DNA of 64,000 nt from an uncultured Gemmatimonadaceae bacterium (lineage in GTDB: Bacteria > Gemmatimonadota > Gemmatimonadetes > Gemmatimonadales > Gemmatimonadaceae). Numbering within the stretch: position 1 is the first letter of the stretch; the number at the start of each line of letters is the position of its first letter. The stretch covers positions 1 through 64,000 of the forward strand of contig CAVUDW010000001.1 in the NCBI GenBank assembly GCA_963740355.1, written 5' to 3'. The translations under genes were made by a program, and so were the position numbers. This document shows, one piece after another, positions 10,375-27,433 of the stretch. The notes under the pieces were generated by a model. That model made no database searches. It saw only the letters and a program-made list of their open reading frames with translations, and was not told the DNA's origin.

Positions 10375-11505
10375 ATGGCTTCTCGACCCGCGCTCCCCGC
10401 GCTGACGGGGCTGCGGTTCATCGCGGCTGCACTCGTGGTGGGCTACCACGTGCATGCCATGATTCCGTCGCTCCGCGAGGCGCCGCTGCTGTCGTTTCTC
10501 GGTGCGGGATACAGTGGTGTGAGCCTGTTCTTCGTGCTCTCTGGTTTTGTGCTGACATACAACTATCTCGAGCCAGACGGCACCGGGATCGCGTCCCTTC
10601 GTGACTTCCTCACGGCACGCTTCGCCCGGATCTATCCACTGTACCTGCTCGGTGTCGCGATTGGCTTCCCGATCTTCCTGCGCGACCTGCAACGCGCAAG
10701 CGGGAACTCGCTCGTCATCGATGACGGCATTCCAATCACGGCCAGCGTGCTCACACTGCTGCAGGCATGGATTCCGCCGTACGCGTGCCGGCTGAACTGT
10801 CCCGGATGGTCACTGTCGGCTGAGGCATTTTTTTATGCACTCTTTCCTGTCGCCGGTGCCCTGCTCTGCCGAAAGAAGTCCTGGGCACTGTTCGTGATCG
10901 GTGCCGCCTGCTGGATGGTCGCGTGCGGCGTGGCGATCGCCTACGTCGTGGGCGACCCGGACGGACTGGGTCGTGCAACCGCAGCCAGCGACGCGACGCT
11001 AATCAATGCGCTCAAGTTCAACCCGCTGGTCCGATTCCCCGAGTTCCTGCTTGGCATTGCTGCTGGCCTCTGGTTCCTGCGCAACCCGCGCTCACTGACG
11101 AGCGTTGCAGCTCCACTCTCGATCATGACCCTGGCGGCCATCGTGGCGGTATTTTCGCTGCATGAGCGGTTGCCGTATCCGCTGATGCACAACGGCTTGC
11201 TGGCACCGCTGTTCACGCTCTTGATCCTCGCGCTGGCAACCGGTGCAGGGCCGATCGCACGCCTGCTCAGCGTCGCGCCGATGCGCCTGTTGGGCGAGGC
11301 ATCGTTTGCGCTCTACCTGCTGCACGTGGCCATCCTCGTCTACGTCATCAAGGGACTCGACCTCGTGGGACTGAGCATGGAGCGCACGCCAGCATTGCTG
11401 GTCGTTTACCTGGTGGTGGTGCAATCGCTCTCGATCATCGTACTGCAGCGAATCGAAGAACCTGCCCGTCGCGCCATCCGGCGCAGGTTCGCGACGCCGA
11501 GCTGA
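10375..11505 (+). CDS. Acyltransferase family 3 (OafA-like membrane O-acyltransferase)
   Basis: LTGLRF..A..V..H, GVSLFFVLSGF, RFARIYP, WSLS.E.FFY, LGE.SF.LYLLH. Confidence 0.9.
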   Translation: MASRPALPALTGLRFIAAALVVGYHVHAMIPSLREAPLLSFLGAGYSGVSLFFVLSGFVLTYNYLEPDGTGIASLRDFLTARFARIYPLYLLGVAIGFPIFLRDLQRASGNSLVIDDGIPITASVLTLLQAWIPPYACRLNCPGWSLSAEAFFYALFPVAGALLCRKKSWALFVIGAACWMVACGVAIAYVVGDPDGLGRATAASDATLINALKFNPLVRFPEFLLGIAAGLWFLRNPRSLTSVAAPLSIMTLAAIVAVFSLHERLPYPLMHNGLLAPLFTLLILALATGAGPIARLLSVAPMRLLGEASFALYLLHVAILVYVIKGLDLVGLSMERTPALLVVYLVVVQSLSIIVLQRIEEPARRAIRRRFATPS

Positions 11506-11538
11506 CTCTTGCGCGTGGCATGGTGGCGGGTGCCGCCG

Positions 11539-12909
11539 TCAGAAGAGCTGCGTGCCGTTGCCGAGATTGTCGAAGCCGCAGTCGAGCGCCCGGTTGAGGC
11601 AGTTCGAGACGAAGAGGTTCTGGGTGGCAGCATCCCACCCGGCAATCCATGTCGCATGGGCTGAGAGGCCGCCACGTCGTGTGGCGGGATCCCGATCAGT
11701 TGCGAGGCGCCACTGCGCTACCGACGACCCTGCCTTCACCGTGTAGTGCACGATCTGCGTGAGTTCCGGAAGCACTACCGGGTGCGTTGCCGGGCAGGCT
11801 GTCAAGGCGGGCGCGCGGCGGTAGACCGGATATGCCATGTGGCTGTGATGGTCGGGCGAATCGAGGTTCGTACCATCCCAACACTGCGGGAAATGAATCC
11901 GGAGTTGCACCTGGTCCCCGACGGCGCACTCGGGGATCATGCCATCATTGTAGACGTACTTGTCGCGACACAGCCATTCGACGGCGTAACGCTGTACGCC
12001 CGTCGCGCGTGGGTTGCCGGCGACCATCACCAGGCCTGCAGGGAACGGCTTGATGCTGAGAGGATCCATGTTGAAGCCGGTCTTGTAGTACGCGACCAGA
12101 TCTTCTGACGGCATCTGCACTTCACCCGTTCGCGCATCGATGATCGCGGGCAGGTAGTGGAGCGATCGGTTGAGCGTTCCGCCGTGGCAGGCCGAATTCC
12201 CGCTGCTCGCCACGGCGGTCGATGTCGCCGATCCGGCCGCGGTGGTATTGCCGAAGAACACATGCAGCGCGGAGCCCTTCGACTGCCCGCTGGCACCAAT
12301 GGGATCAGCGAATTCGAAGGCGGTCACCTGGCAGCTCGTGCGGAAGGTACCGGTGCCATCCGTCACGGTTCCGCTACCGCCGCTTCGTGATTGTGGCACG
12401 CTCACCCCTGGTGATCCCATCGGCACGTCGATCGTCGATGTCGCGAGCATGCCACCAGGCGTCGGATTGACGAGTGTGCGGAATTTCATTGGGCCGTAGT
12501 CGCACCGCAGCGACTGGAGCGGAGCCGGATTCCGGTTCTGGAATCCGTACACGGCGCAGGCCACCGATCCGAACGCCGTCTGCGAAACGAATGCGCCGGA
12601 AAGCGCGATCAGTCGGACCTCACGCAACCCGGTGAACTGGCAGACGGCGCCGGCGTCGGTGCAGTACGTCCAGCGCGTGCTGGACGCCGGCGCGTTTGAC
12701 GCAGGCGAGCTGCTGGGAGGCGGCGGGACCGGTGCCGCGGTACGCTTTGTCGACTGCGCACCAACATTGCGCAGGGCAGCGACGCACGCCATGGCGAGCA
12801 TCGCCATGATCCAAGTGGCAGTGCCTCGCGTTCGACGTCGTATCAGTGCAAGTATCAGGGGCATGGCGGCATCGAACGATGCGAGCGCGCGGTGGGAGCA
12901 TCCAGACAT
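11539..12909 (-). CDS. Secreted DUF1996-domain protein with an N-terminal Cys-rich module; start uncertain
   Basis: DPI...HVFFGN, NRS..Y.P, FPQCWDG.NLDSPDHHSHMAY, CP.THP; N-terminal hydrophobic stretch. Confidence 0.8.
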   Translation of the reverse strand: MSGCSHRALASFDAAMPLILALIRRRTRGTATWIMAMLAMACVAALRNVGAQSTKRTAAPVPPPPSSSPASNAPASSTRWTYCTDAGAVCQFTGLREVRLIALSGAFVSQTAFGSVACAVYGFQNRNPAPLQSLRCDYGPMKFRTLVNPTPGGMLATSTIDVPMGSPGVSVPQSRSGGSGTVTDGTGTFRTSCQVTAFEFADPIGASGQSKGSALHVFFGNTTAAGSATSTAVASSGNSACHGGTLNRSLHYLPAIIDARTGEVQMPSEDLVAYYKTGFNMDPLSIKPFPAGLVMVAGNPRATGVQRYAVEWLCRDKYVYNDGMIPECAVGDQVQLRIHFPQCWDGTNLDSPDHHSHMAYPVYRRAPALTACPATHPVVLPELTQIVHYTVKAGSSVAQWRLATDRDPATRRGGLSAHATWIAGWDAATQNLFVSNCLNRALDCGFDNLGNGTQLF

Positions 12910-13016
12910 CGGAAACGCCTGACCGACGCCACTGTCATAGGCATGACAAGGCGTCGGTCAGGCGTTTCAAGATGTCGTCGCGTCCGATTCAGGAACAGGG
13001 CGCGACGTGGGCCGGA

Positions 13017-14432
13017 TCAGGGGACATAGTCGAGCATGCGTCCGTCGCCGATGAAGCCGACCTGACAATCCTTCTGAGCGTTGAGGCAGTTGACCACGAA
13101 TGCCTTGTGCACTTCGGCATTCCAACCGTACATCCAGTCGGCGTGTGCGCCATAGCCGCCGCGTGACGATGCGGAGAGGGTGGTCATTTCGTTCGTCAGG
13201 CGCCACTTCGACATCACCGAGCCAGCCGGGATCTTCCAGGTGAAGATTTCCGTGATCGTCGGGATCTGGTACGGGTGCGTGCTGGGGCACTTCGATCCGT
13301 TCGTCGCGTTGCTGAAGATCGGATAGGCCATGTGTGACTGGTGATCTGGCGAGTCAAGATCGCGACCGTTCCAGCAGGCCGGGAAGTTGATGTGCAGGTT
13401 CACGCGGTCAGAGCCGTTGGTGTTGCAGTCCGGGATGCTGCCTGAGCCGACATACCGGCTCTCGCATGAATACTCGACGGCGTAGCCCTGGTCGCTGGTG
13501 GCGTTCTTGTTGCCAGCGATCATGCGCAGACCCTGCGGAATTTCGCGGATGTTCGCCGGATTCGACTGATAGCCGACCTTGTAGTAGATGATCAGGCTGT
13601 CCGATGCGAGCAGCTTGCCCGACTCGGTGACCATCAGCGGAACCCAGTAGGCCGTGCGGTTGGCGGTGCCACCCATGCAGGTGGAGTTGCCGCTCGCCAT
13701 CAAACTTTCCGGCGTGCTGTTCGGATTGATCGCCGTGTTGCCGTAGAAGGCGTGCGGGTGACCGACGCTGTTCTGGCCCGGGAAGACGATAGGATCGAAC
13801 GTGCCGGTCTTGGCGAGCAGGCAGATGAAGCGCACCGACGGTTCGCCGCTGGTGCCAGCACCGCGCCACTGACCGGTCTTGATCTTTTCGTAGCTCACAC
13901 CGGCGTTGTACATCACCTCACCAACCACCGGAATCGGCGTGGAACTGGCGTGGGCGTCGGCGTTGGGAACGGGTGTCGGCATCGGTGTTGGGACCGGCGT
14001 CGGCGTCGGGGTGGTGGTCGGGTCAGGCGTCGACGGTGTCGTGACGTCGGTTCCACCCGTGATCGTGATGGACTTTGCACCCGCCAGTAGCCTGAGGCGG
14101 CACCAACCAACACGCGACCCGTACGACGGCGCGCCGTCACGATACCTGTCTGTGTGACGATGCCATCGACGTATCTGCACTCTTCCAGAAAAGTGAAGCG
14201 CCATTCACGAGGCGTCCACGACGGTCGTACACCTTGGCAACCAATTGCAGCTTCGTGCCGCGGCGATGGTGTCGACTCAGTGGTGATGATGAGACGACGA
14301 CGGACGGACCACGCACGGCGAGGCAAGACTTCGGGTGGTTGAGTCCGGGGCGCCTGGGTTGTCTGAGCAACCGGCGAGTGCGAGCGCTGAAGTCAGCAGC
14401 CCGTAGGCAGCTGAACGCGAGCGAGTACGCAT
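13017..14432 (-). CDS. Lipoprotein with Ig-like (Big_2) domain, Pro/Thr linker and DUF1996 domain; 5' part broken by several frameshifts (about 14080-14330)
   Basis: Intact DUF1996 part (DPIVFPG..HPHAFYGN, NRTAYWVP, FPACWNG.DLDSPDH.SHMAY, HADW). Lipobox LALAGC from ATG 14432 and Ig-like fragments lie in different frames. Confidence 0.72.
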
Positions 14433-14690: not shown

Positions 14691-14979
14691 AGCAAAACGA
14701 CAGCGACCTGAGCCATTCGCGTCCAAGGCTACGACGACCTGTCGCGTGCCTTGTAACCAAGCTCGACCATACGGACTGTTTTCTTGACTCGCTCGCTCCA
14801 AGTCAGTGCAAGCCGCAGGCCCGACGGCCTCGGCCGACTCGGCGCATCGCCTCGTACCGGGAGCCCCCTGACATCACCCGCTTCCGGCAGTTCTACTTTA
14901 AGGAGCGACTAATCTCGTTTCCTTCCGTGGAGCGCCCGGTGATGGCGCCCACGTGTGCCTTCCTGCCGCCCGCGCCGTC

Positions 14980-16692
14980 ATGCGTACCGATCTCCTCAGC
15001 CGACTCACCCGCTTCTCCGCGCTCTTCATCCTCGGCTGCGGCAGCAGCAGCGCCACGCCGGGTGACGCACCACCAGAACCACCGGCCGCTGCCGACATCG
15101 CGTTCACCATCAACGCCAGCAGCACCTTCGCCATTTCGCGCTACATCTACGGCGGCAACTTCCTCGAGTCGTCCTCGACGTTCGGCGGCGCGACGCCACC
15201 AGCCGAGATGACACTCAATCGCATGGGTGGCAACCGACTCACGGCGTACAACTGGGAGAACAATTACAGCAACGCCGGCAACGACTACGAATTCCACAAC
15301 GACGAATTCCTCAGCTCGAGCGGCACGCCCGGCCAGGCCGTCAAGACCCGCGCGAATTTCGCCTTCTCGCATGGACAAGCGTTCATGGCGACGGTGCCGA
15401 TGATCGGATACGTGGCAGCCAATGCATGCGGCTGCAACGTCGGCGTGACCGATGCCGATCGCACGAACCGACTGGCGACGCACTTCCGTGTCAGCAAGGC
15501 ATTCAAGGGCAGTCCCTTCACCCTGTCGCCAAACGCTGGCGACGCCTTCGTCTATCAGGACGAATTCGTGAACTGGTTCGAGAACACCTTCCCCGGGCGC
15601 TCCACGCATGCCACGGCACCGGTGTTCTACTCCCTCGACAACGAAGTCGACATCTGGCATTCCACGCACGAAGAAATCAACAGCAACATCGGCGACAACA
15701 AGGACAAGCCGCGCCTGCAGACATACAAGGGGCTCACCGACACGAGCATCGTCTACGCGCGTGCGATCAAGTCAGTCGCGCCGAACGCACTGGTCTTCGG
15801 TCCGGCGGTCGCCACCTACGCCGGCATCGCCGTGCTCGGACGATATCCGACGCCAGACCCGGACTACGGCACGCAGAACTTCGTCGATGTCTACCTCGAT
15901 CGCATGAAGGCGGCCGAAGCGACCTATGGAAAGCGCCTCCTCGATGTGCTGGATGTCCACCACTATCCCGCCATCGGCACCCGTGGCGGCGAAATCACCA
16001 ATGACTATGCACCGCAGGACAGCGCGACGATCTGGGCGCGTGTGCAAGCCCCGCGTTCGCTCTGGGACCCCACCTTCGATGAACAGAGCTGGGTGTCCGG
16101 CGTCACCGCAGGGCCGATCCGACTGCTGCCGCGGCTGAAGGCACAGATCGCGGCACACTACCCGGGCACGAAGATCGCCATCACCGAATACTTCTTCGGC
16201 CGCGGCGGTGACATTTCTGGTGGCATCGCGCAAGCCGACGCGCTCGGCGTGTTCGGTCGCGAAGGGGTGTTCGCTGCGGCCATGTGGCCACTCGCAGGCA
16301 TCTATGCGCAGCCGTGGGCAGGTGATGGTACCAAGGCCTACGCCTACGCGTTCGCAGCCTTCAAGATGTTCCGGAACTACGATGGCGCCGGCGGCATGTT
16401 CGGCGACACCGGACTCCAGGCGACCACCAACAACGTCGCCGCCAGCTCAGTCTATGCGAGCCGCGACAGCGCGGGCAACATCGTCATCATCGCGATCAAC
16501 AAGACCAACACGGCTCGACCCGCACGCATCACGATCAGTGGGGCGACGAACCTCAAGACGGCGAAGTCATGGGCGCTCACCGGCGCGTCTCCCACGCCAG
16601 CTCGCCAGCCGGAGATCGCTCTCGACGGCAGTGGAAGTTTTTCGTACCCGATGCCAGCCCTCAGCGTCACGACCATCGTCCTCACGCCGTAG
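14980..16692 (+). CDS. Glycoside hydrolase family 44 lipoprotein (EpsB-like)
   Basis: Lipobox ILGC; R.GGNRLTAYNWENNYSNAGND, SLDNE (acid/base), LLDVLDVH.Y, YPGTKIAITEY (nucleophile). Confidence 0.9.
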   Translation: MRTDLLSRLTRFSALFILGCGSSSATPGDAPPEPPAAADIAFTINASSTFAISRYIYGGNFLESSSTFGGATPPAEMTLNRMGGNRLTAYNWENNYSNAGNDYEFHNDEFLSSSGTPGQAVKTRANFAFSHGQAFMATVPMIGYVAANACGCNVGVTDADRTNRLATHFRVSKAFKGSPFTLSPNAGDAFVYQDEFVNWFENTFPGRSTHATAPVFYSLDNEVDIWHSTHEEINSNIGDNKDKPRLQTYKGLTDTSIVYARAIKSVAPNALVFGPAVATYAGIAVLGRYPTPDPDYGTQNFVDVYLDRMKAAEATYGKRLLDVLDVHHYPAIGTRGGEITNDYAPQDSATIWARVQAPRSLWDPTFDEQSWVSGVTAGPIRLLPRLKAQIAAHYPGTKIAITEYFFGRGGDISGGIAQADALGVFGREGVFAAAMWPLAGIYAQPWAGDGTKAYAYAFAAFKMFRNYDGAGGMFGDTGLQATTNNVAASSVYASRDSAGNIVIIAINKTNTARPARITISGATNLKTAKSWALTGASPTPARQPEIALDGSGSFSYPMPALSVTTIVLTP

Positions 16693-16713: not shown

Positions 16714-17535
16714 TCACCGTGGAATCGACTGCACCCAGCGATCGAGTCGCGTCAACAGCTCGGCGCGCTTTTGTGCGCTCGTGAAGACGTGATCGGCCGA
16801 ATACATCGTCTCGACCTCGATCTGCGACTCGGGCGCGCCAGGACCGAGCGTCTCGAACACCTGGCGCGGTGAGTTGAACCGGAAGTAGACCCCGCCGCTG
16901 TACACGAACAGCAGCCGTGCGCCGCGCGATGTCATCGCAAGCACATCCTTCCGGAACTGCGCCTCCGTGGGGTACTCGCGTTCAAAGACCGATTGTCCAT
17001 CGGTGTCCGAAATCAACGGACGATCACCACGCACGCGACGCTGGAGAAATCGCACCCAGCGTCCAAGCTGGAGCGGTCGCACGACGTAGTGTCGCACCTT
17101 GAAGCCGGTGCTCGGGTACGCGTAGCCGTCAATGAAGGCCGCCCCCACCACGCGCGGGTCGGTCGACGCGGTCGCGTGCGTGCTGTCGACACCGGAACAG
17201 AGACCGATCAACACGAACTCAGTGATACCGAGTGTCTCGGTGAGGAACTGCATCGCGTCGTCGAGATCGCGCGCTGCGCGAGCAGCCGGCGTCGGCGCGT
17301 CATGCCGCGGCGCACTATCGCCCATGCCCGCCAGGTCGAAGCGAAGCACGGGAAAGCCACTCGCCGCCAGCTTGCGCGCCAGCTCGACATAGATGCGGAA
17401 CGGGCCAACACGGTGATGCATGCCGATGTTCGACACGATCACGGCGCGGGCCGCACCCCGGGCTGGCGTCTTCGGCTCACTCAGCACACCGACCAGGCCA
17501 CCATGCGCGCCGAAGACGACCGCACGTTCGTTCAC
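16714..17535 (-). CDS. Alpha/beta-hydrolase-fold protein with Cys at the nucleophile elbow (similar to exosortase-A-associated hydrolase 1)
   Basis: HHRVGPFR.YV.LAR, LRFDLAGMGDS, GLCSG elbow, C-terminal ADHVF. Confidence 0.8.
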   Translation of the reverse strand: MNERAVVFGAHGGLVGVLSEPKTPARGAARAVIVSNIGMHHRVGPFRIYVELARKLAASGFPVLRFDLAGMGDSAPRHDAPTPAARAARDLDDAMQFLTETLGITEFVLIGLCSGVDSTHATASTDPRVVGAAFIDGYAYPSTGFKVRHYVVRPLQLGRWVRFLQRRVRGDRPLISDTDGQSVFEREYPTEAQFRKDVLAMTSRGARLLFVYSGGVYFRFNSPRQVFETLGPGAPESQIEVETMYSADHVFTSAQKRAELLTRLDRWVQSIPR

Positions 17536-18353
17536 GAGCCACTCCGGGCGAGGAATGTGGTGATGGCCACGGGGATGTTGTGTGACAGTAGCGTGTCGGC
17601 AGGATGGCGACCCGGCGCGTACATGGCCGGATCATCCACGCGCTCGACGGTCACCTTCAGCCCTGCCTCGATCAGACGCTGCTCGAGCGCGGATTGCGCC
17701 GGCGTAAACGCAGCACCGATCAGCAGCAGCCGATCGATCCGACCGACTTCCTCCTGCAACAAGTCGAGGCTGGCCATGTCTGCACGAACGTGGTCAGGAA
17801 ATGCATAGCCCATCACTTCCCCGTCGATACGATGATTCGGCTCCGGGTAGTTCAGCATGCGGAGGCGCACATCTTCGCTGGCATCGAGGGTGGCGACATA
17901 CTCCGTACCCGAGACCACCGGATCCCAGAGCACGAGGTCGCGCACCTTCACGCCCGACGCGCTCGCACGCAGCGCGACGGCGGCCCCGATCCGTGTCCCA
18001 ACCAGCGAGATGCGACGAATCCCCGCCAGGTCGCGCAGCTCGGAGACGGCCGTGCCCACATCTTCCGTCCACTGCGCCAGCGAACCTTCTGTGGCGTCGC
18101 CGTACGAATCACCGGTGCCGAAGTAGTCAAATCGTAGCACATGGAACCCTGCCGCTGCCAGCAGGCCGGCAAGCTTCTGGAAGGCCCAGTGCACCTGACT
18201 GTACTCGTGCGGGCCGGGATAGCAGAGGACGACGCCAGCATCGCGGATCGTCGCTCCGTCTGGAGCATGGTAGATCCCGAACAACTGGCGATCGGGCGAT
18301 CCGAAGAATCGCGGGACGATCTCAGAAGATTTCATGCTGGCGACGCTCGTCAC
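17532..18353 (-). CDS. Alpha/beta-hydrolase-fold protein with Arg at the nucleophile elbow (similar to exosortase-A-associated hydrolase 2)
   Basis: LRFDYFGTGDS.GD, GTRIG elbow, LVLWDPVVSG; 4-nt overlap with the next gene. Confidence 0.8.
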   Translation of the reverse strand: MTSVASMKSSEIVPRFFGSPDRQLFGIYHAPDGATIRDAGVVLCYPGPHEYSQVHWAFQKLAGLLAAAGFHVLRFDYFGTGDSYGDATEGSLAQWTEDVGTAVSELRDLAGIRRISLVGTRIGAAVALRASASGVKVRDLVLWDPVVSGTEYVATLDASEDVRLRMLNYPEPNHRIDGEVMGYAFPDHVRADMASLDLLQEEVGRIDRLLLIGAAFTPAQSALEQRLIEAGLKVTVERVDDPAMYAPGRHPADTLLSHNIPVAITTFLARSGS

Positions 18354-18377: not shown

Positions 18378-19304
18378 TCAAACATTGCGAACGCCAGCCT
18401 TTGGAAGTCGAACCGAAGTGAATACATGTTCATCTTCGACGCAGAAGTCCGCCGTCAGCAACGTTCCGGAGTCGATCCCGGCTCCGAGGGATTCGACGAC
18501 CCGAAGCGCCATCGCTCCGCGTGCCACGTCGACCCATTCGACGGCAACCGCGTCGAAATCGAAAAATACACCCGTGATCGGGTGGAGGCACTTGTAGACA
18601 CTTTCCTTGGCGCTGAAGACGGCTGTGACAAAGGTGCGCCAATCCAGCCGCGCCGTAGGGTCGCCACGGCGGCCGATTGCGTCGCCTTCGGGGAGGACCC
18701 GGCCGAGAATGTCCTCGACGGCCGCATCATTCATCACGCGCTCGCAGTCGATCCCGATCCCGAGCGTCACCGACGCCCACGCGGCCACAGCGACGGCAAT
18801 GCGCGGGGAATGCGAGATCGAGCCCACGATCCCGGCCGGCCACACGGGTGCACCGAGCGCCCCGATCGGCAGCGGCTCGCGAATCAGCGCTGGCTCGCCG
18901 GTGAGCGAAAGAATCGCCTGCGCCGCACAGTGCCGGCCGGCGAGGTAGCCGCGCGCCCGTGACCGAACCGCGCGACCGAGCGACGAGGGAACGTCGTACC
19001 GGCACCGCTCGACGCGACCCGCGCGTGCTAAACGATCCGCATGCTCCGCGCCGCTATGGCCGGCTGCGTCGTTCCTCGCATCGATTTCGTGGAGGCTGAC
19101 AGCGTGTGTGGCGCCGAGCCCCCGGAATAATGCCGGAACCGGACGCGCCCCGAACAGTCGCAGGGTTTCTCCGAGACTGGGCGCGGCCGGCGCGCCCGTC
19201 GGGGCTTGCGCTGCCGTGCCCAGCCCTAGATTCGCGCAGACGGCGTCGCTGTGAACGCGATCCGCTCCCCCGCCCGACCCCTGTTCCGCCGCGTCACTCT
19301 GCAT
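18378..19304 (-). CDS. 4'-phosphopantetheinyl transferase (EntD/Sfp-type); true start may be downstream of 19304
   Basis: YLAGR.CA, P.WP.G..GSISHS, GIGIDCE, FSAKESVYK motifs. Confidence 0.88.
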   Translation of the reverse strand: MQSDAAEQGSGGGADRVHSDAVCANLGLGTAAQAPTGAPAAPSLGETLRLFGARPVPALFRGLGATHAVSLHEIDARNDAAGHSGAEHADRLARAGRVERCRYDVPSSLGRAVRSRARGYLAGRHCAAQAILSLTGEPALIREPLPIGALGAPVWPAGIVGSISHSPRIAVAVAAWASVTLGIGIDCERVMNDAAVEDILGRVLPEGDAIGRRGDPTARLDWRTFVTAVFSAKESVYKCLHPITGVFFDFDAVAVEWVDVARGAMALRVVESLGAGIDSGTLLTADFCVEDEHVFTSVRLPKAGVRNV

Positions 19305-20200
19305 GACTCTCCTACGACGCATTCTCGTCGCCGCCATCACGCTGTTCGTCGCCTGGCAGCTGTTCCACGGTGCGAGAGCGGCGCGATTCGAATACGCCAT
19401 CTTCCGCACCCCACGCAGCGTACCGTCCCGCCCGCCAGACGCGGAGGAACTTGGGCTGCAGGACGTGGAATTTCCATCCGCCGACGGCACGACTCTCAAA
19501 GGGTGGTATCTCCCCTCGAGCAACGGTGCCGCCATGGTGGTCGTGGGAGGAAGCGCTTCCACCCGTGACGGGATGCTGGATCACGCGCGGCTGCTCCATT
19601 CGGGCGGAACCGGCGTTCTGCTGTTCGACTGGCCTGGGTGCGGCGAGAGCGGCGGCCAGATCGGGGTCGGGCCGGGCGAACGGGCCGCCGTGTCTGGCGC
19701 CATCGGCTTCGTGGCCCAGCAGCCGGATGTTCGCGACGGAAGGATCGGGCTGCTCGGCTTCTCCCTGGGCGCCCACATGTCGTTCTTCGTGGCGGCCGCC
19801 GACTCGCGCGTCAGGATGCTGGTCGTTGAAGGCGTCTTCAGTGATCCGTGGAAGCAGGGCCTGGCGGAGTACCGCGATGGCGGCGTTGCAGCGCAGTGGG
19901 GTGCGCTGTTCGGTGACCTCCTTGGTGGGATGGACCGCAAGGTACTCGACGCTGCCGCGGCAGCAGCCGGCATCGCGCCGCGGCCATTCCTGGTCGTGGC
20001 CGGCGGCGCTGACCGCACGGTTCCGGTCGAACTCTCCCGGCAGATTTTCGACCTCGCCCGAGAACCAAAGAGTTTCTGGCTGATCGAGGGCGCCGGCCAC
20101 GGCGAATACCTGACCGCCGATCACGACCTACGGACCACGACTTCGACAGTTCGTCGAAGGGGCACTGGCCGCGACCGATGGCCGAGCCAGCACCCCCTGA
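19303..20200 (+). CDS. Membrane-anchored Ser alpha/beta hydrolase with an apparent +1 frameshift near 20120-20125 (as-is ORF runs to 20334)
   Basis: N-terminal TM; GFSLG / D(RTVP) / GAGH triad. The alternative frame gives a typical terminal helix TYGPRLRQFVEGAL...TGA at 20200. Confidence 0.78.
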
Positions 20201-20249
20201 CGTTTTTCCTGGACTCACCACGCAGGACGCCGCGTTACTCGTGGTCGGG

Positions 20250-23200
20250 TTATGAGATCAGTCCCTTCAGGCGCGAGAACATACCCGAGGATTCCTGCGC
20301 AGTGGCGGCACCGGAGGACGTGCTCGCTGACTGAGTCGCCAACTCCGCGGCCGCCTGCTCCAGCGTCCCCACCAACAGGGCACGAGGATTGAGGTGTCGT
20401 CCGGTCGATTTGCGCACCTGCTCCACCACGCGGAAGCAGAGCAGCGACGTTCCGCCCAACCGGAAGAAGTTGTCGAGTACACTCACCTGCTCCACACCCA
20501 GCGCCGCCTTCCAGGCTTCAGCGAGCATCGCCTCGCTTTCGTTTCGCGGTGCGACCTGCTGCACGGTGGCACTGGCCGCCGCTGCGAACGGAGAAAGCAA
20601 CGCCTCGTACCGCACCACGCCACGCGCGTCGATCGGCAGCGCACTGAGCTCCACGATCCGCTGCGGCACACAGCGACGTGGGAGGCGCGTGCGCGCTGAA
20701 GTACGCAGTTCCGTCTCGGTGTAACGCGCCCCAGGGCGCGGCACCACGTAGGCTACGACCCGCAACTTTCCGGAGGCGTCCGGATGCATCGCGACAGCCG
20801 CTTCTGCAACCGACGGGTGCTGGCGAACGGCCTCCTCGATTGCGGTGGAACTGCACGCCACGCCGTCACACCACACGGTCGCGAAGTCATTCCGAATGAG
20901 TTGGATGCGCCCATCCGAAACGCGACGCGCTCGAACGCCCGTCGCGACCTGCGCCACGCCGCGCGACACCCGAAGGCGACCTGGAATCCCGAAGGGTGAC
21001 TTCCGCCCGTCGGCGTCGACGACATCGAGGCTCGCGCCCGCGACGCCAAGCACATTGGCGTAACTCGTCCCGTCGGTTGTGCGGGCAGCCTGCACGCAGG
21101 TTGCCCCGCCGTCGGTCGGGAGGCCGAACAACGTGAAGGCCGACGTAACTCGCGTCACCAACTTCCACATGTCTTCGCCACTCGCGAAGGCACCTGCCAC
21201 CAGCACACCGCGGAAGGTCGCCGGTGCGCTCCAGGACGTCGCGAGCAGCTGCTGCCACAGTCCGCTGTTTGCGAACAGAACGGTTGCTCCAGAATCCTCG
21301 AGCTCATCGGACAACTCGGAGGCATCTTCGCGGGCATCATCTGACGCGACCACGAGCGTTGCGCCCGCGGTCAGCGGCGCGAGCATTTCGAGCACCGCAG
21401 AAGGAGCCCCGGCGGCAAGGGTGGTGACGACGCTGTCACTCGACTCGATCGCGAGCGCAGCGACGACGTCGCGTGCCTGCGCGGCCAGAAGTGAAGCGCC
21501 CACGGTATGTACCGCGAGTGAACCACCGGCCGCTGGAACGGCGACGAGCACGGATGGCGTCTCGCCTGCGACGCTCACGGCCGTCACCGGGCTCACGTCG
21601 AGCAAATCATCGATGGTCAGTTCATGCGCCACACCGAGGTCGTCGCTATCCCCGTCGGTGATGACCGCCACCAGCTTGGCTGCGGTCGCGACCTGACGGT
21701 GGTAGCCAGCGGCATCGTCCACGTCGAGCAGGAGCACTGCGGCGCCAGCGCCCACGGCACCGAGAGTCGCCACGACACGATCGATTCCGACGGGCAAGGC
21801 AATGCCGACTGGCGCGCCAGGCACGACGCCAGCCTTGGTCAGCCCGCCGGTCACCCGCTGGGCGCGAGAGATCAGTTCAGCGTACGAGATGGACTTTCCA
21901 TTCGCCCGTACGGCGACACGTTCAGGCGCCGACACCGCGATCCGTGCAATCGCCGGAGCCGGTGCCTCGGCGTCGGTCGTGACCGGTACGTCGTGTGCGG
22001 CACGGTCAGCCGCCGACGACAAGTCGATGCTGCCAACCGTTCGCTCCGGGTTCTCCAGCACCGACATGAGGAACGTTCGGAGCTGCACAAGGAACGTTTC
22101 GGCGGTCACACGTTCGAAGAGCTCGGTGCTGTAATTCAATACAGCATAAAGCTTTGTACGCGTGTCCATCATCCACAACATGAGATCATTGGTCGTGAAG
22201 TGCTGCGGCACGTGATACTGCTCCACGCGCAACGATCCCATCGCTGCTGGGCGCTCACGCGCGTCCTGCATCGAGAACAGGGCGCGTACCGGCGGCACTC
22301 GCGTGCCGAGCAGTTCGAACGGCAATTCCTGGTTGCTGAACGAATCGAGTGTCGTGTCACGCACGGCGCGCAACAGATCCGGGAAGGCGAGCGTGGGTGA
22401 CACCCGCGTCCGCAGCAGCACCGTGTTCACGAATGGACCAACGATGACCTCGAGCTCAGGACGTGTTCGCGCACGAACCGGTGAGCCAACCAGCAGATCT
22501 TCCTGCCCGGTGTAGTGATGCAGGATGACGTTATAGGCGGCGAAGACGACCATGAAGAGAGTCGCGTCGTACTTTCGTGCGAGCGCGCGAAGCTGGTCGG
22601 CTTCCTCGATCGTGAACGGAAGCGAGATCTGGTTGCCTGAGTTGTCCGATAGCGACGGCCGCGGGAAATCGGTTGGAAGCGCGAGGTCCTGCAGGTCGCC
22701 AGCCAGCTGCGCCCGCCACCACTCACCCTGCGCCTTGGCCTCAGGCCCGGCGAGCCAGCTCGACTGCCACGCGCTGAAGTCGCCATACGTCACGGGGAGG
22801 GCGTTCAGCACCGGCGCCCGCTTCTCTTCATCAGCGGCATAGAGCTCCGTCACTTCCTTGAGGAAGAGGTCGAAGCTCCAGCCGTCCCAGACCATGCCGT
22901 GCTGCAACGAGTACAGCAGGTGGTGCTGGTCAGCCAGCTTGAAAATGCACGCCCGATAAAGCGGCGCTACGGAGAGATCGAACGTCGTGTACTGCTGCTC
23001 CTGGAAATACGCGACCAGTGCTTCCTGCTGTGCAGCCTCGTCCAGTGCAGACAAATCGCGGCGATCGAGCTTGAAGGTGCTGGTCGGTGCAACGACCTGC
23101 CGGCGTTCGCCGTCGATGGTGTGGAAGCTGGTGCGCAGCGTGGCGTGGCGCGCGATCAGCGCGTCGAACGCACGCTCGAGCCGTCCGAAGTCGAGATCAC

Positions 23201-26200
23201 CGAACAGCCTCCACGACGCACTGTGTGCGTGCGCGGACCGTTGGGTTGGCTCCAGCTCCTCGAGCAGCCAGAGCCGCTCCTGCAGCACCGAGAGCGGTGC
23301 GACGGTCGCGTCAGGGCGATGCGGAATCGACTCGACGACCATCGGTGCCGAGAGCGGAGCGCCGCTGGCGCGCGACTGGTCGACCAGCGCGCCCAGCGCC
23401 CGCACCGTTGGAGCTTCGAAGATCTTCCGGAAGGACAACTGGATGCCGTGGTCGCGACGCAGTCGCGAGAGCACCTGCGATGCCAGCAGTGAATGCCCAC
23501 CAAGCGAGAAGAAGTCCGCGACGACGCTGACCTTCTCGAGCCCGAGCACCTCCGCCCACAATCCGGCGATGATCGTCTCGGCCTCCGTCGCGGGCGCGAC
23601 GAACTCACTTTCAGCCACTACTGCCGCACCGGCCTGCGGTGCGGGTAATGCCTTTCGGTCCACCTTGCCGCTGGGGGTCAGCGGCATCGCGTCCATGCGT
23701 ACGAAGGTGTAAGGCACCATGTAATCAGGCAGCGAGGCCTTGGCGAACGCCCGCAGCTTGTCCGAGATGACGTCGTCGGAATCGGTGACGAGATAGGCGA
23801 CGAGCCGGACGTCGTTGACGCGATCCTCGCGTGCGATCACAGCCGCCTCGCGCACCCCGTCCCACTTCATCAGCACCGCTTCGATCTCGCCCGGCTCGAT
23901 GCGGAAGCCTCGCACCTTGACCTGGTTGTCATTGCGGCCGAGACACTCCAGTTCCCCAGTCGGCAGCAGTCGGACCAAGTCACCGGTGCGGTAGATCAGC
24001 GCACCAGGGGTGGTCGGATCAGCGATGAATCGCTCGGCGGTCAGGTCCGGGCGATTGAGGTAGCCCTTGGTCACGCCGCGACCCGCAATGAACATCTCGC
24101 CCGGAACGCCGATCGGCGTCTGTTGTCCCTGCCCGTCGAGGATCTGTACCACGGTGTTCGCCACTGGCCGGCCAATCAAGACCTTCTTCACCGGCGACGT
24201 CACGCGCGCGAATGTCGACCAGACCGTGGTTTCAGTTGGCCCGTAGCCGTTCCACACTTCAGCCGCACATGAGGTGAGCGTCTCGGCAAGGTCCTTCGGC
24301 ATCGCTTCACCCGTGCAGATCACGCGGAGCTTGGCGTCACCCTTCCAGCCGGACGCGAGCAGCAGACGATAGGTCGCCGGGGTCGCATCGATGAAGGTGA
24401 CGCCGGTGGACTCGACGAGCTGCATCAGCATCGCGCCGTCGGATGCCACTTCGCGCGACGCAAGGACGATCCGTGCGCCAACGGTCAGCGGAAGGATGAC
24501 CTCCGAGACGGCGATGTCGAACGACAGAGTGGTGATCGCCAGCACGGTGTCGACGCTGCGGAGGCCCGGCTCGCGCTGCACACTGGCCAACAGGTTCACG
24601 ACCGATCGGTGAGGCACCAGCACACCCTTCGGCTTGCCAGTGGAGCCGGAGGTATAGATGACGTACGCCGTGTCTTCCGGCTGCGCCGAGCTAGCTGAAT
24701 CGACGGTATCCGCGTCTGGACAGGCGGCAATCGCCGCTGCGTCCGTATCGACGAGAACCGTTGCCGTAGCCGGCAGCGACACCTCCGACGCGATCCTCGA
24801 ATCCGTGATCAGGACCGCCAGGGCAGCGTCACTGGCCATGTAGCTGAGTCGATCTGCCGGATAGTTCGGGTCGAGTGGCACATAACCCGCTCCCGACTTC
24901 AGCGCAGCGACCAGCGCGACCAGCAGTTCAGGCGTGCGATCGAGGCACAGCCCAACGAGGGCACCAGGACGAACCCCCTTCTCGCGAAGCAAGTGCGCGA
25001 GCTTGTTCGCGCGACGGTTCAGCTCCGCATACGACACACGCGTGCCCTGGAACTCGATCGCAATCGCGTCAGGCGTTCGGGCTGCTTGCGCCTCGATCAT
25101 CCGATGCACCAGGGTCTCGGCAGGCAACGCGAGGCCGGTGTCGTTGCACGAGTCGAGCGCGGCGCGGTCGGCATCGGTCAGGATCGGCAGCGTCCCAACC
25201 GTCGCCGACGGGTTTGCCACGAACCCTTCCAGCAACCGCTCGTAGCTCTCAAGCCAGCGTCGAATCGTCGCGGCATCGAAGAGATCACTGTTGTACTGAC
25301 ACTCGAGAATCAGGCCGTCGTCGGTCTCGAGCGCATTCACGAAGAGATCGAAGTTCTCGAAGGCGCGCGGAATACTCACCATCTCGGCAGCGATGCCGTC
25401 AAACGGCATTGCCGACGCTGGCAGTGACCGATCGACGTTGAACATCACCGACACGAGCGGAATGCGGCTCGGATCACGCGGAAGTTGCAGACGCTCCAGC
25501 AGGCTTCCGAATCCAAGGCGCTGATGCTCGAACGCGTCCAGCGCCGTCGTCCGCACGGCAGCGAGATAGTCGCTGAACGCCGTCGTGCCCACGGGGCGGA
25601 CACGGATCGGAAGCATGTTGACGCAGTGCCCAACGAGTCCGGTGCGCCCAGACGCCGACTGTCCGGCGGACGGCACACCAAGCACCAGGTCATCCTGACC
25701 GGACAGACGGTGGACCAGTGTCGAGAAACCTGCCAGCAGCGTTGCGAACATGCTGCTGTTGGTCTTCATGCCAGCCGCGCGCACGGCGCGCGCCAGCTCG
25801 AGTGACAGCGTGCGGTCCTCGCGCCCGGCGTCGAATGTCTTCAGCGCTGGACGAGGACGGTCATTTGGCAGGTCGAGAACGGGCACCGAGCCCTTGTACT
25901 GATCCAGCCAGTACTTCTCATCCTCTGCGCGCTCCGCGCCGTGCGCCGCCTCGGCCGTTTCGCGGGCATAGTCGCTGAACGACTCTGCGGGCGCGAGGTT
26001 GGCGGATGTACCTGAGTGTCGCGCGTTGTAGAGCGCCGCCAGGTCGCTGCCGATGACTCCGAACGACCAGCCGTCACAGATGATGTGATGGGCCGACAGC
26101 ACGAGCTCGTGCAGCTCTGGTGAGAGCTGGAGCAGGCGCGCGCGAACCAGCGGCCCGTGCTCGAGATCGAACTCCTCGGTGACCACGCCGCGCAACACCG

Positions 26201-26582: not shown

Positions 26583-27422
26583 TCAGCGAGTCTCTACAAG
26601 TGGTATTTCGACTGTCGGTACTGACACGACCCTCGGTTGCAAGGCAATCGAGCGAACACGTTGTGCCTTGAGGAGCCGCGCAGTTCGGAAGAGGATCCCG
26701 ACGAAACGCGGACCGCGGATCAGGTAGCGTTTCCAGAGTCGTTTGGGATCCTGCAGTAGTCGATATGCCCATTCGAACCCGGCATTCGAGACCCAGCGGG
26801 GCGCCCGACTGATCTGGCCAGAGATGAAGTCGAGACTGGCGCCGACTCCGATCGCGACGGCCGGACGAATCTCGTCCAGGCATCGTGCAATCCAGAGCTC
26901 CTGCTTCGGTGCGCCAAGTGCGACGAACACGATGTCAGGCTTCGCGGCACGCACGCGCTCGAGCACGCCAGCATCACCCTCCTTCGATCCGTCCATCGAG
27001 ACGAATGAGGGATCGATTCCGACGATACGCACGCCGAAGCGCTGCACCAGTCGTTCGGCTGCGAGTTCTGCTGCGCCCGGCTCACCCGGCATGCCGCCGA
27101 GGAGGTACACGCCCCAATTCTGCTCGGCTGCGAGCTGGACGATCGGGATGATCATGTCGGATCCCGACAGCTTCTCCGGAATGCGCTTGCCAAGCAGGCG
27201 CGACGTCCAGACGAGCGGCATGCCGTCGGCGAATGACAGGTCGGCGCGGCGATACGCGCGGCGCAGACCGGCGTGTTCATCCGCCATCACCACGTGATCG
27301 ACGTTCGGCGTGAAGATCGCGCCGCCTAGCCCGCGATGAACGAGATCGCGCACCGCGACGATCGCGTCATCAAAGGCGAGAGCGTCGACCCACAACCGAC
27401 CGAAACGAACACGATGGCGCAC
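26583..27422 (-). CDS. WecB/TagA/CpsF family glycosyltransferase (GT26, EpsA-like)
   Basis: TPNVDH, ADGMPL, SGSD, VALGAPKQE, RAP.W....GFEW.YRL.Q.PKRL..RY. Confidence 0.93.
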   Translation of the reverse strand: MRHRVRFGRLWVDALAFDDAIVAVRDLVHRGLGGAIFTPNVDHVVMADEHAGLRRAYRRADLSFADGMPLVWTSRLLGKRIPEKLSGSDMIIPIVQLAAEQNWGVYLLGGMPGEPGAAELAAERLVQRFGVRIVGIDPSFVSMDGSKEGDAGVLERVRAAKPDIVFVALGAPKQELWIARCLDEIRPAVAIGVGASLDFISGQISRAPRWVSNAGFEWAYRLLQDPKRLWKRYLIRGPRFVGILFRTARLLKAQRVRSIALQPRVVSVPTVEIPLVETR

Positions 27423-27433
27423 GTGCGCGGTCC

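What the first reader, a model, noticed from the sequence alone, without database searches (positions are those of the whole stretch)
16714..18353. Coupled alpha/beta-hydrolase pair with Cys and Arg at the nucleophile position: candidate offloading transacylase
Seen: two 273-aa paralog-like genes overlap by 4 nt directly after the PPTase. Their elbows are GLCSG (with a C-terminal ADH His) and GTRIG (Arg, so not catalytic). Neither has a signal peptide. Established from recall: the uncharacterised exosortase-A-associated hydrolases 1 and 2 have GLC and GLRLG elbows and sit in EPS loci. Inference: an active/inactive heterodimer replaces the missing TE and moves thioester cargo onto a sugar.
Basis: partly seen in the sequence, partly recalled or inferred. 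Interest (0 to 1): 0.72.

Follow-up and report, generated by a model that had tools for sequence, protein, structure and literature searches.

The report
Paired Cys/Arg hydrolases in thioesterase slot
Two overlapping hydrolase-fold genes, one with a catalytic cysteine and one with an arginine at the catalytic position, sit where a peptide synthetase's release enzyme normally would; the same pair recurs across many bacterial phyla, which points to an undescribed two-part release or transfer enzyme.

Summary
On the minus strand, a 273-aa gene with the elbow GTRIG (H2, 18353..17532) overlaps by 4 nt a 273-aa gene with GLCSG and a C-terminal ADH (H1, 17535..16714). Both lie directly after a PPTase and near a TE-less NRPS (C-A-T-C-A0-T).

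Their best family hits are TIGR03101 and TIGR03100, but both score far below the cut-offs. They belong to a sister clade of the exosortase-A pair.

- **Residues:** the Cys and His of H1 (120 of 120 each) and the Arg of H2 (119 of 120) are conserved.
- **Order:** in 75 of 80 related loci H2 sits just upstream of H1.
- **Context:** 73 of 80 loci show NRPS/PKS domains. In 43 loci the terminal T domain ends less than 200 nt before H2.
- **Fusions:** T–H2 fusions and a large family of single-chain H2–H1 proteins exist. One of these was modelled with pTM 0.93.

Best reading (0.6): this is a two-part, carrier-protein-dependent acyl release or transfer enzyme. H2 would be the Arg pseudo-hydrolase adaptor and H1 the Cys–His catalyst.

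A sugar acceptor is only suggested, by a conserved GT2+WecG cassette.

The parts
17532..18353 (-). H2: alpha/beta-hydrolase-fold protein with Arg121 at the nucleophile elbow (GTRIG) and no C-terminal catalytic His. Proposed non-catalytic, carrier-protein-facing subunit.
   Evidence: TIGR03101 at 90.3 bits, below the 202.75 cut-off; Arg 119 of 120; T-H2 fusions
16714..17535 (-). H1: alpha/beta-hydrolase-fold protein with Cys113 (GLCSG), His249 (ADH) and Asp136 after strand beta6. Proposed catalytic subunit that forms an acyl-S-Cys intermediate.
   Evidence: TIGR03100 at 87.8 bits, below the 168.45 cut-off; Cys and His 120 of 120; model pLDDT 88.1
18378..19301 (-). Sfp-type 4'-phosphopantetheinyl transferase, first gene of the PPTase-H2-H1 unit. 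The ORF runs to 19562, but its first ~87 codons overlap the opposite-strand hydrolase gene. The start at 19301 or later is inferred.
   Evidence: (4PPT_N + ACPS at residues 196-348)
19303..20334 (+). H3: third alpha/beta hydrolase with an N-terminal membrane anchor and a canonical GFSLG Ser, plus Asp and His motifs. It lies on the opposite strand between the NRPS and the PPTase and overlaps the NRPS 3' end by 85 nt.
   Evidence: Hydrolase_4 at 37.8 bits; codon-position GC like real genes; homologue in 10 of 80 loci
20250..26561 (-). NRPS of 2103 aa: C-A-T-C-A0-T, with no TE, R or terminal C domain. The second adenylation-like domain lacks the P-loop, TGD and A10 Lys motifs.
26583..27422 (-). 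WecG/TagA/CpsF-family glycosyltransferase 22 nt upstream of the NRPS. Part of the GT2+WecG cassette that recurs beside NRPS/H2/H1 in other phyla.
27964..29163 (-). EpsU-like GT2 glycosyltransferase, the second member of the recurring cassette.
14953..16692 (+). GH44 glycoside hydrolase (EpsB-like), convergent with H1. A syntenic neighbour in the closest relatives.
   Evidence: (L018)

Best explanation
H2 and H1 are the two subunits of a carrier-protein-dependent acyl release/transfer enzyme that stands in for the thioesterase domain of the adjacent TE-less NRPS. H2 is an alpha/beta-hydrolase-fold pseudo-enzyme whose nucleophile is replaced by a conserved Arg. It is proposed to receive the terminal T domain and its phosphopantetheine arm and to pair with H1. 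H1 would use Cys113-His249, with Asp136 after beta6 as the likely third residue, to take the peptidyl or acyl chain off the carrier as a thioester (acyl-S-Cys). It would then pass the chain to a nucleophile. In this locus the acceptor is probably a glycan-pathway intermediate or a sugar; water or an intramolecular nucleophile remain possible. Shown here: sequence features, fold, residue conservation, gene order, the fusions and the absence of a TE. Inferred: physical complex, which subunit meets the carrier, the acyl-enzyme intermediate, and the acceptor.
For: (1) Active-site logic. Cys and His are kept in 120 of 120 H1 relatives, in 78 of 78 NRPS-type and 13 of 13 exosortase-type H1, and in 136 and 134 of 136 fused proteins. 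Arg is kept in 119 of 120 H2 relatives and 132 of 136 fused proteins. Both residues align with the Ser of solved esterases. The residue after beta6 is Asp or Glu in 76 of 78 NRPS-type H1. That is the position the SulM paper describes as usual for the Asp of NRPS thioesterases (PMC11298585, passages read).
(2) TE slot. Of 80 related loci from one-genome-per-species contigs, 73 show NRPS/PKS domains. In 53 a T domain lies upstream on the same strand, and in 43 of those it ends less than 200 nt before H2, leaving no room for a TE. In 9 loci the NRPS is divergent, and in 5 NRPS/PKS genes follow the pair.
(3) Fusions. 15 of 20 longer relatives are A-T-H2, C-A-T-H2 or KS-AT-ACP-H2 proteins, all with the Arg elbow; the other 5 are H2-H1 fusions. 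Further fusions are P0224 and loci L071, L078 and L090.
(4) Unit behaviour. H2 lies directly upstream of H1 in 75 of 80 loci. Stop and start overlap in 52 of 71 evaluable pairs. The fused single-chain form is widespread, and one member folds as a single compact body with mean pLDDT 93.4 and pTM 0.93.
(5) The same logic holds in the sister clade. In 13 of 14 genomes with exosortase-A-type pairs, an 83-100-aa ACP gene sits directly upstream of H2-H1. In the one locus scanned, a TIGR03098 ligase and a TIGR03099 PLP decarboxylase lie beside them.
(6) The same genome holds a second Cys/Arg pair directly after a C-A-T NRPS inside a hybrid NRPS-PKS cluster.
(7) Local context. The NRPS ends in T2 with no TE, and a PPTase is the first gene of the PPTase-H2-H1 unit.
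(8) For a glycan-linked acceptor: synteny with polysaccharide genes is kept in the closest relatives. EpsU-like GT2 and/or WecG genes recur next to the module in Gemmatimonadota, Polyangiaceae and Acidobacteriota loci.
Against:
- The pTM 0.93 model is of a distant fused homologue (P0264), not of the window's two proteins, and had no control.
- H3, a canonical Ser-Asp-His hydrolase, lies between the NRPS and the PPTase. It could be the release enzyme here, although it occurs in only 10 of 80 loci.
- Because H3 is on the opposite strand, the NRPS and PPTase-H2-H1 are not one operon.
- Two loci (L069, L079) have a T domain followed directly by H1 with no H2 detected, so H2 is not always required.
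- The post-beta6 acid is Asn in all 13 exosortase-type H1 and all 136 fused proteins, so a full triad is not a family-wide feature.
- Three loci with full flanks (L044, L057, L070) show no carrier domain. My T-domain profile also misses small ACPs.
- Only 12 of 80 loci show a polysaccharide marker, so a sugar acceptor cannot be general.
- In the paralogous cluster the pair lies mid-cluster next to a type II TE.
Confidence: 0.6

Rival explanations
1. The pair is a carrier-to-carrier shuttle like CmaE/SyrC. H1 takes an aminoacyl or acyl group from one T domain or ACP and puts it on another, for example loading T2, whose own adenylation domain is dead. It does not release the final product.
For: A2 is degenerate: 27% identical to A1, with the P-loop and TGD motifs deleted and the A10 Lys lost. 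T2 therefore needs loading in trans or by A1. The C-A-T-C-A0-T architecture recurs with the pair in several phyla. Standalone aminoacyltransferases that shuttle between T domains are known, namely CmaE and its SyrC and zorbamycin homologues (PMC8748450, passages read). That they use a Cys nucleophile is my recall.
Against: No second adenylation enzyme or free carrier protein was found among the 43 window ORFs scanned. Many loci have two intact A domains yet still carry the pair directly after the last T with no other release domain, for example the Corallococcus loci. A-T-H2 and ACP-H2-H1 systems offer only one carrier.
Confidence: 0.12
2. The pair is a hydrolytic editing or release thioesterase (type II TE-like) that simply hydrolyses carrier-bound thioesters. 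The Arg protein is a structural partner, and no specific acceptor exists.
For: The fold and position match trans-acting thioesterases. The H1 model resembles the thioesterase DcsB (Z 20.5) and the myristoyl-ACP thioesterase 1tht (Z 18.4), among many tied esterases. Water is the default nucleophile.
Against: There is no Pfam Thioesterase (PF00975) hit at E <= 1e-4. A strictly conserved Cys in place of Ser, plus a conserved second subunit, is an elaborate solution for plain hydrolysis. In the paralogous cluster a PF00975 type II TE is encoded right next to the pair, which argues that the two are not redundant. Some fused H2-H1 proteins carry an extra GNAT/Fem-like acyltransferase domain (4 of 4 tested), which suggests transfer rather than hydrolysis.
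Confidence: 0.12
3. The pair has nothing to do with carrier proteins. It is an esterase or deacylase acting on the polysaccharide made by the surrounding locus, and H3 or another enzyme releases the NRPS product.
For: The whole window is polysaccharide biosynthesis. The only paper found that mentions TIGR03100 treats its member as a possible polysaccharide-processing hydrolase (PMC3584217, passages read). The nearest solved relatives are esterases.
Against: Both proteins lack signal peptides, and one has no nucleophile. 73 of 80 loci have NRPS/PKS domains but only 12 of 80 have polysaccharide markers. T-H2 fusions tie the family physically to carrier domains.
Confidence: 0.04

Closest known systems
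Exosortase A (XrtA) system-associated hydrolase 2 / hydrolase 1 (NCBIfam TIGR03101 / TIGR03100; function uncharacterised)
   Same: These are the best HMM hits. They share the H2-then-H1 gene order, the Arg elbow in H2, the GLC elbow and C-terminal His in H1, and a carrier protein directly upstream.
   Different: Scores are less than half the curated cut-offs, here and in all 20 NRPS-type proteins tested. In the tree the 13 exosortase-type H1 form their own clade (SH-like support 0.982) apart from the NRPS/PKS-type H1. The donor here is a modular NRPS, not a ligase + ACP + PLP decarboxylase set. The post-beta6 residue is Asp rather than Asn. The genome's one exosortase-family (EpsH, TIGR02602) gene is on another contig.
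Cys-nucleophile NRPS thioesterase domains (SulM, ObiF, AB3403)
   Same: Alpha/beta-hydrolase fold, a Cys-His(-Asp) nucleophile set, and an acyl-S-enzyme formed from a PCP-bound thioester (PMC11298585, passages read). They sit at the same position after the last T domain.
   Different: Those are single domains fused in cis, of the PF00975 type. Here there is no PF00975 hit, the enzyme is free-standing, and it is paired with an Arg-elbow partner. Ring-forming chemistry is not indicated.
CmaE / SyrC aminoacyl-S-carrier transacylases
   Same: Free-standing enzymes that take an aminoacyl group from a T domain as a covalent intermediate and pass it on (PMC8748450, passages read). That they use an active-site Cys is my recall.
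   Different: They move cargo between two carriers and act alone. Sequence relatedness was not tested here, because no reference sequence was at hand. No second carrier is encoded near the window's pair.
BtrH / CtaG papain-like, carrier-protein-dependent transacylases (butirosin, closthioamide)
   Same: A Cys-His-Asp/Asn transacylase takes an acyl group from a carrier protein and forms an amide bond on an acceptor. It follows an adenylating enzyme + ACP + PLP decarboxylase (PMC7183216 and PMC11350588, passages read). The exosortase-type gene set has the same parts list. That the butirosin acceptor is the aminoglycoside's sugar amine is my recall.
   Different: The fold is unrelated (papain-like, not alpha/beta hydrolase), and there is no pseudo-enzyme partner.
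Type II thioesterases, including the transacylating LgnA; PacP A-T-TE0
   Same: Trans-acting alpha/beta hydrolases on NRPS carriers. LgnA forms an aminoacyl-enzyme and transfers it. PacP carries a triad-less TE0 after A-T, reminiscent of the A-T-H2 proteins (PMC8748450, passages read).
   Different: Those use a GHSxG Ser and are single proteins. A conserved Arg at the elbow and an obligate Cys partner are not described there.

Membership tests
TIGR03100 (hydrolase 1, exosortase A system-associated) | HMM score at or above the curated cut-off of 168.45 bits | tested here: not met
   H1 scores 87.8 bits. Ten further NRPS-type H1 proteins score 55.8-84.9 bits. True members score 187-373 bits.
TIGR03100 (hydrolase 1, exosortase A system-associated) | Cys at the nucleophile elbow and a C-terminal His | tested here: met
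   GLCSG and ADH in the window. WGLCD[AG] in 14 of 14 member genomes and A[DNT]HTF in 13 of 14.
TIGR03100 (hydrolase 1, exosortase A system-associated) | Genomic association with an XrtA/PEP-CTERM system and with the TIGR03098 ligase, an ACP and the TIGR03099 decarboxylase | tested here: not met
   The window has none of these among the ORFs scanned. The genome's single EpsH-family exosortase hit is on contig C2. An NRPS takes the donor role instead.
TIGR03101 (hydrolase 2, exosortase A system-associated) | HMM score at or above the curated cut-off of 202.75 bits | tested here: not met
   H2 scores 90.3 bits. Ten further NRPS-type H2 proteins score 73.0-98.9 bits. A true member scores 321.8 bits.
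TIGR03101 (hydrolase 2, exosortase A system-associated) | Arg at the nucleophile elbow; encoded directly upstream of hydrolase 1 | tested here: met
   GTRIG and a 4-nt overlap with H1. G[LC]R[LSA]G in 13 of 14 member genomes, in H2-then-H1 order.
NRPS/PKS thioesterase (Pfam PF00975, type I or II) | PF00975 match and a GxSxG Ser nucleophile | tested here: not met
   Neither protein has a PF00975 hit at E <= 1e-4. The nucleophile position holds Cys in H1 and Arg in H2.
Alpha/beta-hydrolase superfamily (Hydrolase_4 / S33-like) | Pfam match above the gathering score, and the fold | tested here: met
   PF12146 at 38.9 and 29.8 bits, above the 27-bit cut-off. H1 model pLDDT 88.1; best structural match PET46 (8b4u) at Z 21.0, rmsd 3.9 over 227 residues.
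CmaE/SyrC aminoacyltransferases | Sequence membership and transfer between two carrier proteins | not tested
   No reference sequence or family model was available in the libraries searched. Only the functional analogy is drawn.
Physical H2:H1 (and H2:T) complex | Direct interaction of the two window proteins with each other and with T2 | not testable with these tools
Only indirect evidence exists: the fusions and a fused homologue modelled at pTM 0.93.

The most novel reading that the evidence does not exclude
An ancient, undescribed two-component module releases or transfers acyl groups from carrier proteins. It consists of an Arg-elbow pseudo-hydrolase that receives the carrier protein and a Cys-His alpha/beta hydrolase that carries the acyl group as a thioester. 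It comes in three forms: ACP-H2-H1 in exosortase-A polysaccharide loci, T(-H2)+H1 at the end of hundreds of NRPS/PKS lines that lack a TE, and single-chain H2-H1, sometimes with a GNAT domain. In the cassette seen here (GT2 + WecG + NRPS + H2/H1) it would couple non-ribosomal peptide synthesis to glycan assembly. The product would be a peptide- or lipopeptide-bearing glycan or glycolipid, a kind of surface-polymer decoration not yet described.
Probability: 0.3. Interest if true: 0.85.

Novelty: new variant of a known kind. Interest (0 to 1): 0.68.

Why it matters
Chain release decides what a non-ribosomal peptide or polyketide finally becomes. Genome-mining tools look for TE, R or terminal C domains to find that step.

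A conserved free-standing Cys/Arg pair sits in the TE slot of most of the 80 loci examined, and the scan that supplied them found 412 relatives among one-genome-per-species contigs. If this pair is the release enzyme, these clusters are currently read as having no release step.

It would also give a first function to the exosortase-A 'hydrolase 1/2' families, which have been known only as HMM names. It would provide an example of a pseudo-enzyme that keeps a conserved Arg where the nucleophile was.

If the acceptor here is a glycan intermediate, the finding would link NRPS chemistry to surface-polysaccharide decoration in Gemmatimonadota, Myxococcota and Acidobacteriota. That link is directly testable with a Cys-to-Ala mutant and acyl-enzyme trapping.

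Tried and rejected
- **Mixed alignment A5** of fused, H2 and H1 sequences: MAFFT placed the free H1 sequences on the H2 half, so I discarded it and used only fused proteins (A6).
- **Literature searches:**
  - TIGR03100 / TIGR03101 / 'exosortase A system-associated' found 1 paper, with only a table entry and a guess at a polysaccharide-processing role.
  - A search on hydrolase, NRPS, heterodimer, chain release and catalytic cysteine found 12 papers, none describing such a pair judging by titles and abstract starts.
  - PEP-CTERM + ACP + ligase + decarboxylase + hydrolase found 0 papers.
  - PEP-CTERM + exosortase + ACP + hydrolase matched 3 papers, 2 of them listed. The one I read concerns N-acyl amino acid synthases; the other, by its title and abstract start, concerns aminoacylases.
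  - Thioesterase, pseudoenzyme, nonribosomal, standalone and transacylation found 15 papers, 12 listed, none relevant by title and abstract start. I opened the myxofacycline paper; it mentions no hydrolase.
  - Craig et al. 2011 (PMC3187218) is not held.
  - I saw no supplements. These searches cover open-access papers only, so prior description elsewhere is not excluded.
- **Earlier scan findings:** none by place or by sequence.
- **A 561-aa frame on C2** with weak TIGR03100/03101 hits turned out to be an unrelated secreted Ser hydrolase, GHSEGG.
- **Structure searches** gave only tied, generic alpha/beta-hydrolase matches. No solved chain covers both domains of the fused model; TMq is at most 0.36.
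- **ESM Atlas** for H2 returned generic hydrolase clusters plus 'Exosortase A-associated hydrolase 2' clusters.
- **A-domain substrate specificity** was not derived, because no reference alignment was available.
- **Gene calls in foreign loci** used a length x GC3 heuristic. The first length-only version mis-called opposite-strand ORFs and was dropped.
Full report
**What is in the sequence.** Two ORFs lie on the minus strand, 17532..18353 and 16714..17535, each 273 codons, sharing 4 nt. The upstream one, here H2, reads SLVGTRIGAAVA at the nucleophile elbow. The downstream one, H1, reads VLIGLCSGVDS and, near its C-terminus, MYSADHVF. They are 24-25% identical to each other. Neither has an N-terminal hydrophobic stretch. 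A PPTase gene (4PPT_N + ACPS) ends 24 nt upstream of H2.

**Fold and family.** Both proteins pass Pfam's alpha/beta-hydrolase models (PF12146). Profile searches against solved structures put the catalytic Ser of S33-type esterases (GLSMGG, GFSLGG) exactly on Cys113 of H1 and Arg121 of H2. An AlphaFold model of H1 (pLDDT 88.1, pTM 0.86) is a canonical alpha/beta hydrolase.
- Cys113 follows strand beta5, Asp136 follows beta6 and His249 follows beta8.
- Its best structural matches are tied generic esterases (PET46, Z 21.0). The trans-acting thioesterase DcsB (Z 20.5) and GrgF (Z 20.2) are among them.
- In NCBIfam the best hits are TIGR03101 for H2 (90.3 bits, cut-off 202.75) and TIGR03100 for H1 (87.8 bits, cut-off 168.45).

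**Conservation.** Among the 120 best H1 relatives, Cys, the following Ser and His are each kept in 120 of 120. Among the 120 best H2 relatives, Arg is kept in 119, and no C-terminal His is conserved. H2 is therefore not a decaying copy. It is a conserved protein that holds an Arg where the nucleophile was.

**Context elsewhere.** A scan of one-genome-per-species contigs found 412 relatives of H1, and the 80 best loci were kept. They come from Gemmatimonadota, Acidobacteriota, Myxococcota (many Corallococcus), Polyangiaceae, Chloroflexota, Nitrospinaceae and Pseudomonadota. I scanned them with small custom profiles for H1, H2, T, A, C and KS domains.
- H2 lies directly upstream of H1 in 75 of 80 loci. 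Three of the five exceptions are cut by a contig end. Two (L069, L079) have a T domain followed directly by H1 with no H2.
- In 53 loci a T domain lies upstream on the same strand, and in 43 of these it ends less than 200 nt before H2, so no TE can fit. In the other 10 the gap holds a PPTase or an aminotransferase domain where I annotated it.
- Nine loci have a divergent NRPS. In five, NRPS/PKS genes follow the pair. Four are other arrangements.
- Four show no carrier domain, one of them at a contig edge.
- In all, 73 of 80 loci show NRPS/PKS domains.
- Stop and start of H2 and H1 overlap in 52 of 71 evaluable pairs (the start codon was chosen by a heuristic).

The window's own genome has a second Cys/Arg pair (GIRLG / GLCSG, TDH). 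It lies directly after a C-A-T NRPS and before a PF00975 type II TE, inside a hybrid NRPS-PKS cluster on contig C2.

**Fusions.** Among 20 longer relatives of H2, 15 are A-T-H2, C-A-T-H2 or KS-AT-ACP-H2 proteins, with H2 at the extreme C-terminus where a TE would sit. All 15 have the Arg elbow. The other five are H2-H1 fusions.

A search of 1.84 billion representative proteins with one such fusion (P0264) gave 1343 hits at E <= 1e-30. Among the 150 best, 136 were 540-660 residues long, and in their alignment Arg is kept in 132, Cys in 136 and His in 134. Four of four tested ~1000-aa members carry an extra C-terminal GNAT (PF13480) domain.

P0264, folded with these 136 sequences, gives mean pLDDT 93.4 and pTM 0.93 over 584 residues. 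That is a single compact body made of two alpha/beta-hydrolase domains. No solved chain covers both halves (TMq at most 0.36). This is a prediction for a distant homologue, made without controls. It supports but does not show that the window's H2 and H1 form a complex. The direct test, complex prediction, was unavailable.

**The exosortase-A pair.** No TIGR03100 match passes the cut-off in 201 Gemmatimonadota genomes; 14 of the 201 have sub-cut-off relatives (the tally includes the unpublished genome G057). In the order of a Comamonadaceae genome, 47 of 251 genomes have a true member (the tally includes the unpublished genome G229).

In 14 of those genomes:
- H1 reads WGLCD[AG] in 14 of 14 and A[DNT]HTF in 13 of 14.
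- H2 reads G[LC]R[LSA]G in 13 of 14.
- The order is again H2 then H1.
- An ACP gene of 83-100 codons (motif LDSM) sits directly upstream of H2 in 13 of 14.

In the one locus scanned with NCBIfam, a TIGR03098 ligase and a TIGR03099 PLP decarboxylase lie alongside, both over their cut-offs. In a FastTree tree the 13 exosortase-type H1 sequences form one clade (SH-like support 0.982), apart from the NRPS/PKS-type sequences. The window groups with three Gemmatimonadaceae loci (support 0.983). All 20 NRPS-type proteins tested score below the cut-offs. The Cys/Arg division of labour and the link to a carrier protein therefore predate the split of the two clades.

**The local setting.** The NRPS (26561..20250) is C-A-T-C-A0-T with no TE. 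Its second adenylation-like domain is 27% identical to the first but has lost the P-loop, the TGD motif and the A10 Lys.

It encodes a membrane-anchored alpha/beta hydrolase with a canonical GFSLG Ser, and it has gene-like codon-position GC and a conserved homologue in L018. Homologues occur in 10 of 80 loci. The NRPS and PPTase-H2-H1 are thus separate transcription units.

The whole window is polysaccharide biosynthesis. The closest relatives keep the synteny NRPS-(H3)-PPTase-H2-H1-GH44-GT4-GT9-Wzy-flippase-exporter. Only 12 of 80 loci show a core polysaccharide marker. However, close homologues of the window's EpsU-like GT2 and/or WecG transferase recur beside the module:
- in Gemmatimonadota: L016, L018, L051;
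- in Polyangiaceae MAGs: L041, L048, L055;
- in a Proteobacteria MAG: L067;
- in an Acidobacteriota MAG: L086.

Against the window's proteins, GT2 E-values in L041, L048, L055, L067 and L086 are 1e-107 to 1e-125. WecG E-values in L041, L048, L055 and L051 are 1e-76 to 1e-80, and about 1e-148 in L016 and L018. In L041 the module sits with a sugar epimerase/dehydratase, and in L086 with a flippase and a GT4.

**Mechanism.** The most economical reading is that H2 and H1 together do the job of a thioesterase domain.
- H2 is placed next to or fused to the last carrier, so it would receive the T domain. Its Arg may hold the phosphopantetheine phosphate or the substrate; this is inference.
- H1 would take the chain onto Cys113 and pass it on.
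- A thioester intermediate keeps the acyl group activated. That suits transfer to an amine or hydroxyl rather than hydrolysis, as in Cys-type TE domains (PMC11298585) and in the papain-like transacylases BtrH and CtaG. Those act after an adenylase-ACP-PLP decarboxylase trio (PMC7183216, PMC11350588), the same parts list as the exosortase-type locus.

The acceptor here is unknown. The GT2+WecG cassette makes a glycan intermediate plausible, at roughly one in three.

Rivals are a CmaE/SyrC-like carrier-to-carrier shuttle that loads T2 (0.12), plain hydrolytic release or editing (0.12), and a carrier-independent polysaccharide esterase (0.04). The main weaknesses are:
- no interaction or activity data;
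- the presence of H3;
- two loci that lack H2;
- an acid residue that is Asn in the exosortase-type and fused clades.

**Novelty.** Five full-text searches found no description of this pair at NRPS/PKS ends or of a function for TIGR03100/03101. Subscription journals and supplements were not searched. I file it as a new variant of a known kind: a relative of the uncharacterised exosortase-A hydrolase pair, working like a trans-acting Cys thioesterase or transacylase but built from an active and a pseudo-enzyme subunit.

Noticed in passing
window 19303-20334 (+): Third alpha/beta-hydrolase gene on the opposite strand between the NRPS and the PPTase. It has an N-terminal membrane anchor and canonical GFSLG Ser, Asp and His motifs, and it overlaps the NRPS 3' end by 85 nt. 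Homologues occupy the same place in L018 and occur in 10 of 80 related loci.
   Followed up: partly
window 20562-21944 (-), NRPS residues ~1540-2000: The second adenylation domain of the NRPS is degenerate: 27% identical to A1, with the P-loop and TGD motifs deleted and the A10 Lys lost. The C-A-T-C-A0-T architecture recurs with the hydrolase pair in Gemmatimonadota, Myxococcota and Pseudomonadota loci. How T2 is loaded is open.
   Followed up: partly
window 19302-19562 (-): The first ~87 codons of the 394-codon PPTase ORF lie antisense to the H3 gene and read like non-coding translation. The PPTase probably starts at or after 19301.
   Followed up: partly
G000 contig C2 264458-266182 (L015 4450-6182): A second Cys/Arg hydrolase pair in the same genome, inside a large hybrid NRPS-PKS cluster. 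It follows a C-A-T NRPS with TubC-type docking domains and precedes a PF00975 type II thioesterase.
   Followed up: partly
proteins P0276, P0279, P0298, P0323: Single-chain H2-H1 proteins with an added C-terminal GNAT domain (PF13480, Acetyltransf_6). This three-domain form hints at acyl transfer to an amine acceptor.
   Followed up: partly
window 26583-29163 (-); L016, L018, L041, L048, L051, L055, L067, L086: Close homologues of the window's EpsU-like GT2 and/or WecG glycosyltransferase travel with the NRPS/H2/H1 genes in three phyla. The GT2 E-values (1e-107 to 1e-125) are very low for such distant hosts, which suggests a mobile cassette.
   Followed up: partly
window 30764-32307 (-): The EpsV-like chain-length (PCP) protein is split over two overlapping ORFs, 31603..32307 and 30764..31660, which match EpsV positions 24-113 and 183-484. 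This may be a frameshift or a naturally split gene.
   Followed up: no
window 10375-14204: Compared with the syntenic locus L018, the window has extra genes between GH44 and GT4: two DUF1996 proteins (13017..14204 and 11539..12909, minus strand) and an Acyl_transf_3 membrane acyltransferase (10375..11505, plus strand).
   Followed up: no
L069 9565-10840; L079 155-1275: In two related loci a T domain is followed directly by H1 with no H2 detected, so a subclade may work without the Arg partner.
   Followed up: no
window 1-64000: Most ORFs across the window carry polysaccharide-pathway domains: three polyprenyl-phosphate sugar transferases, two GH44 genes, two Wzy-like polymerases, two Wzi-like proteins and two Acyl_transf_3 genes. 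Several polysaccharide loci appear to lie side by side.
   Followed up: no
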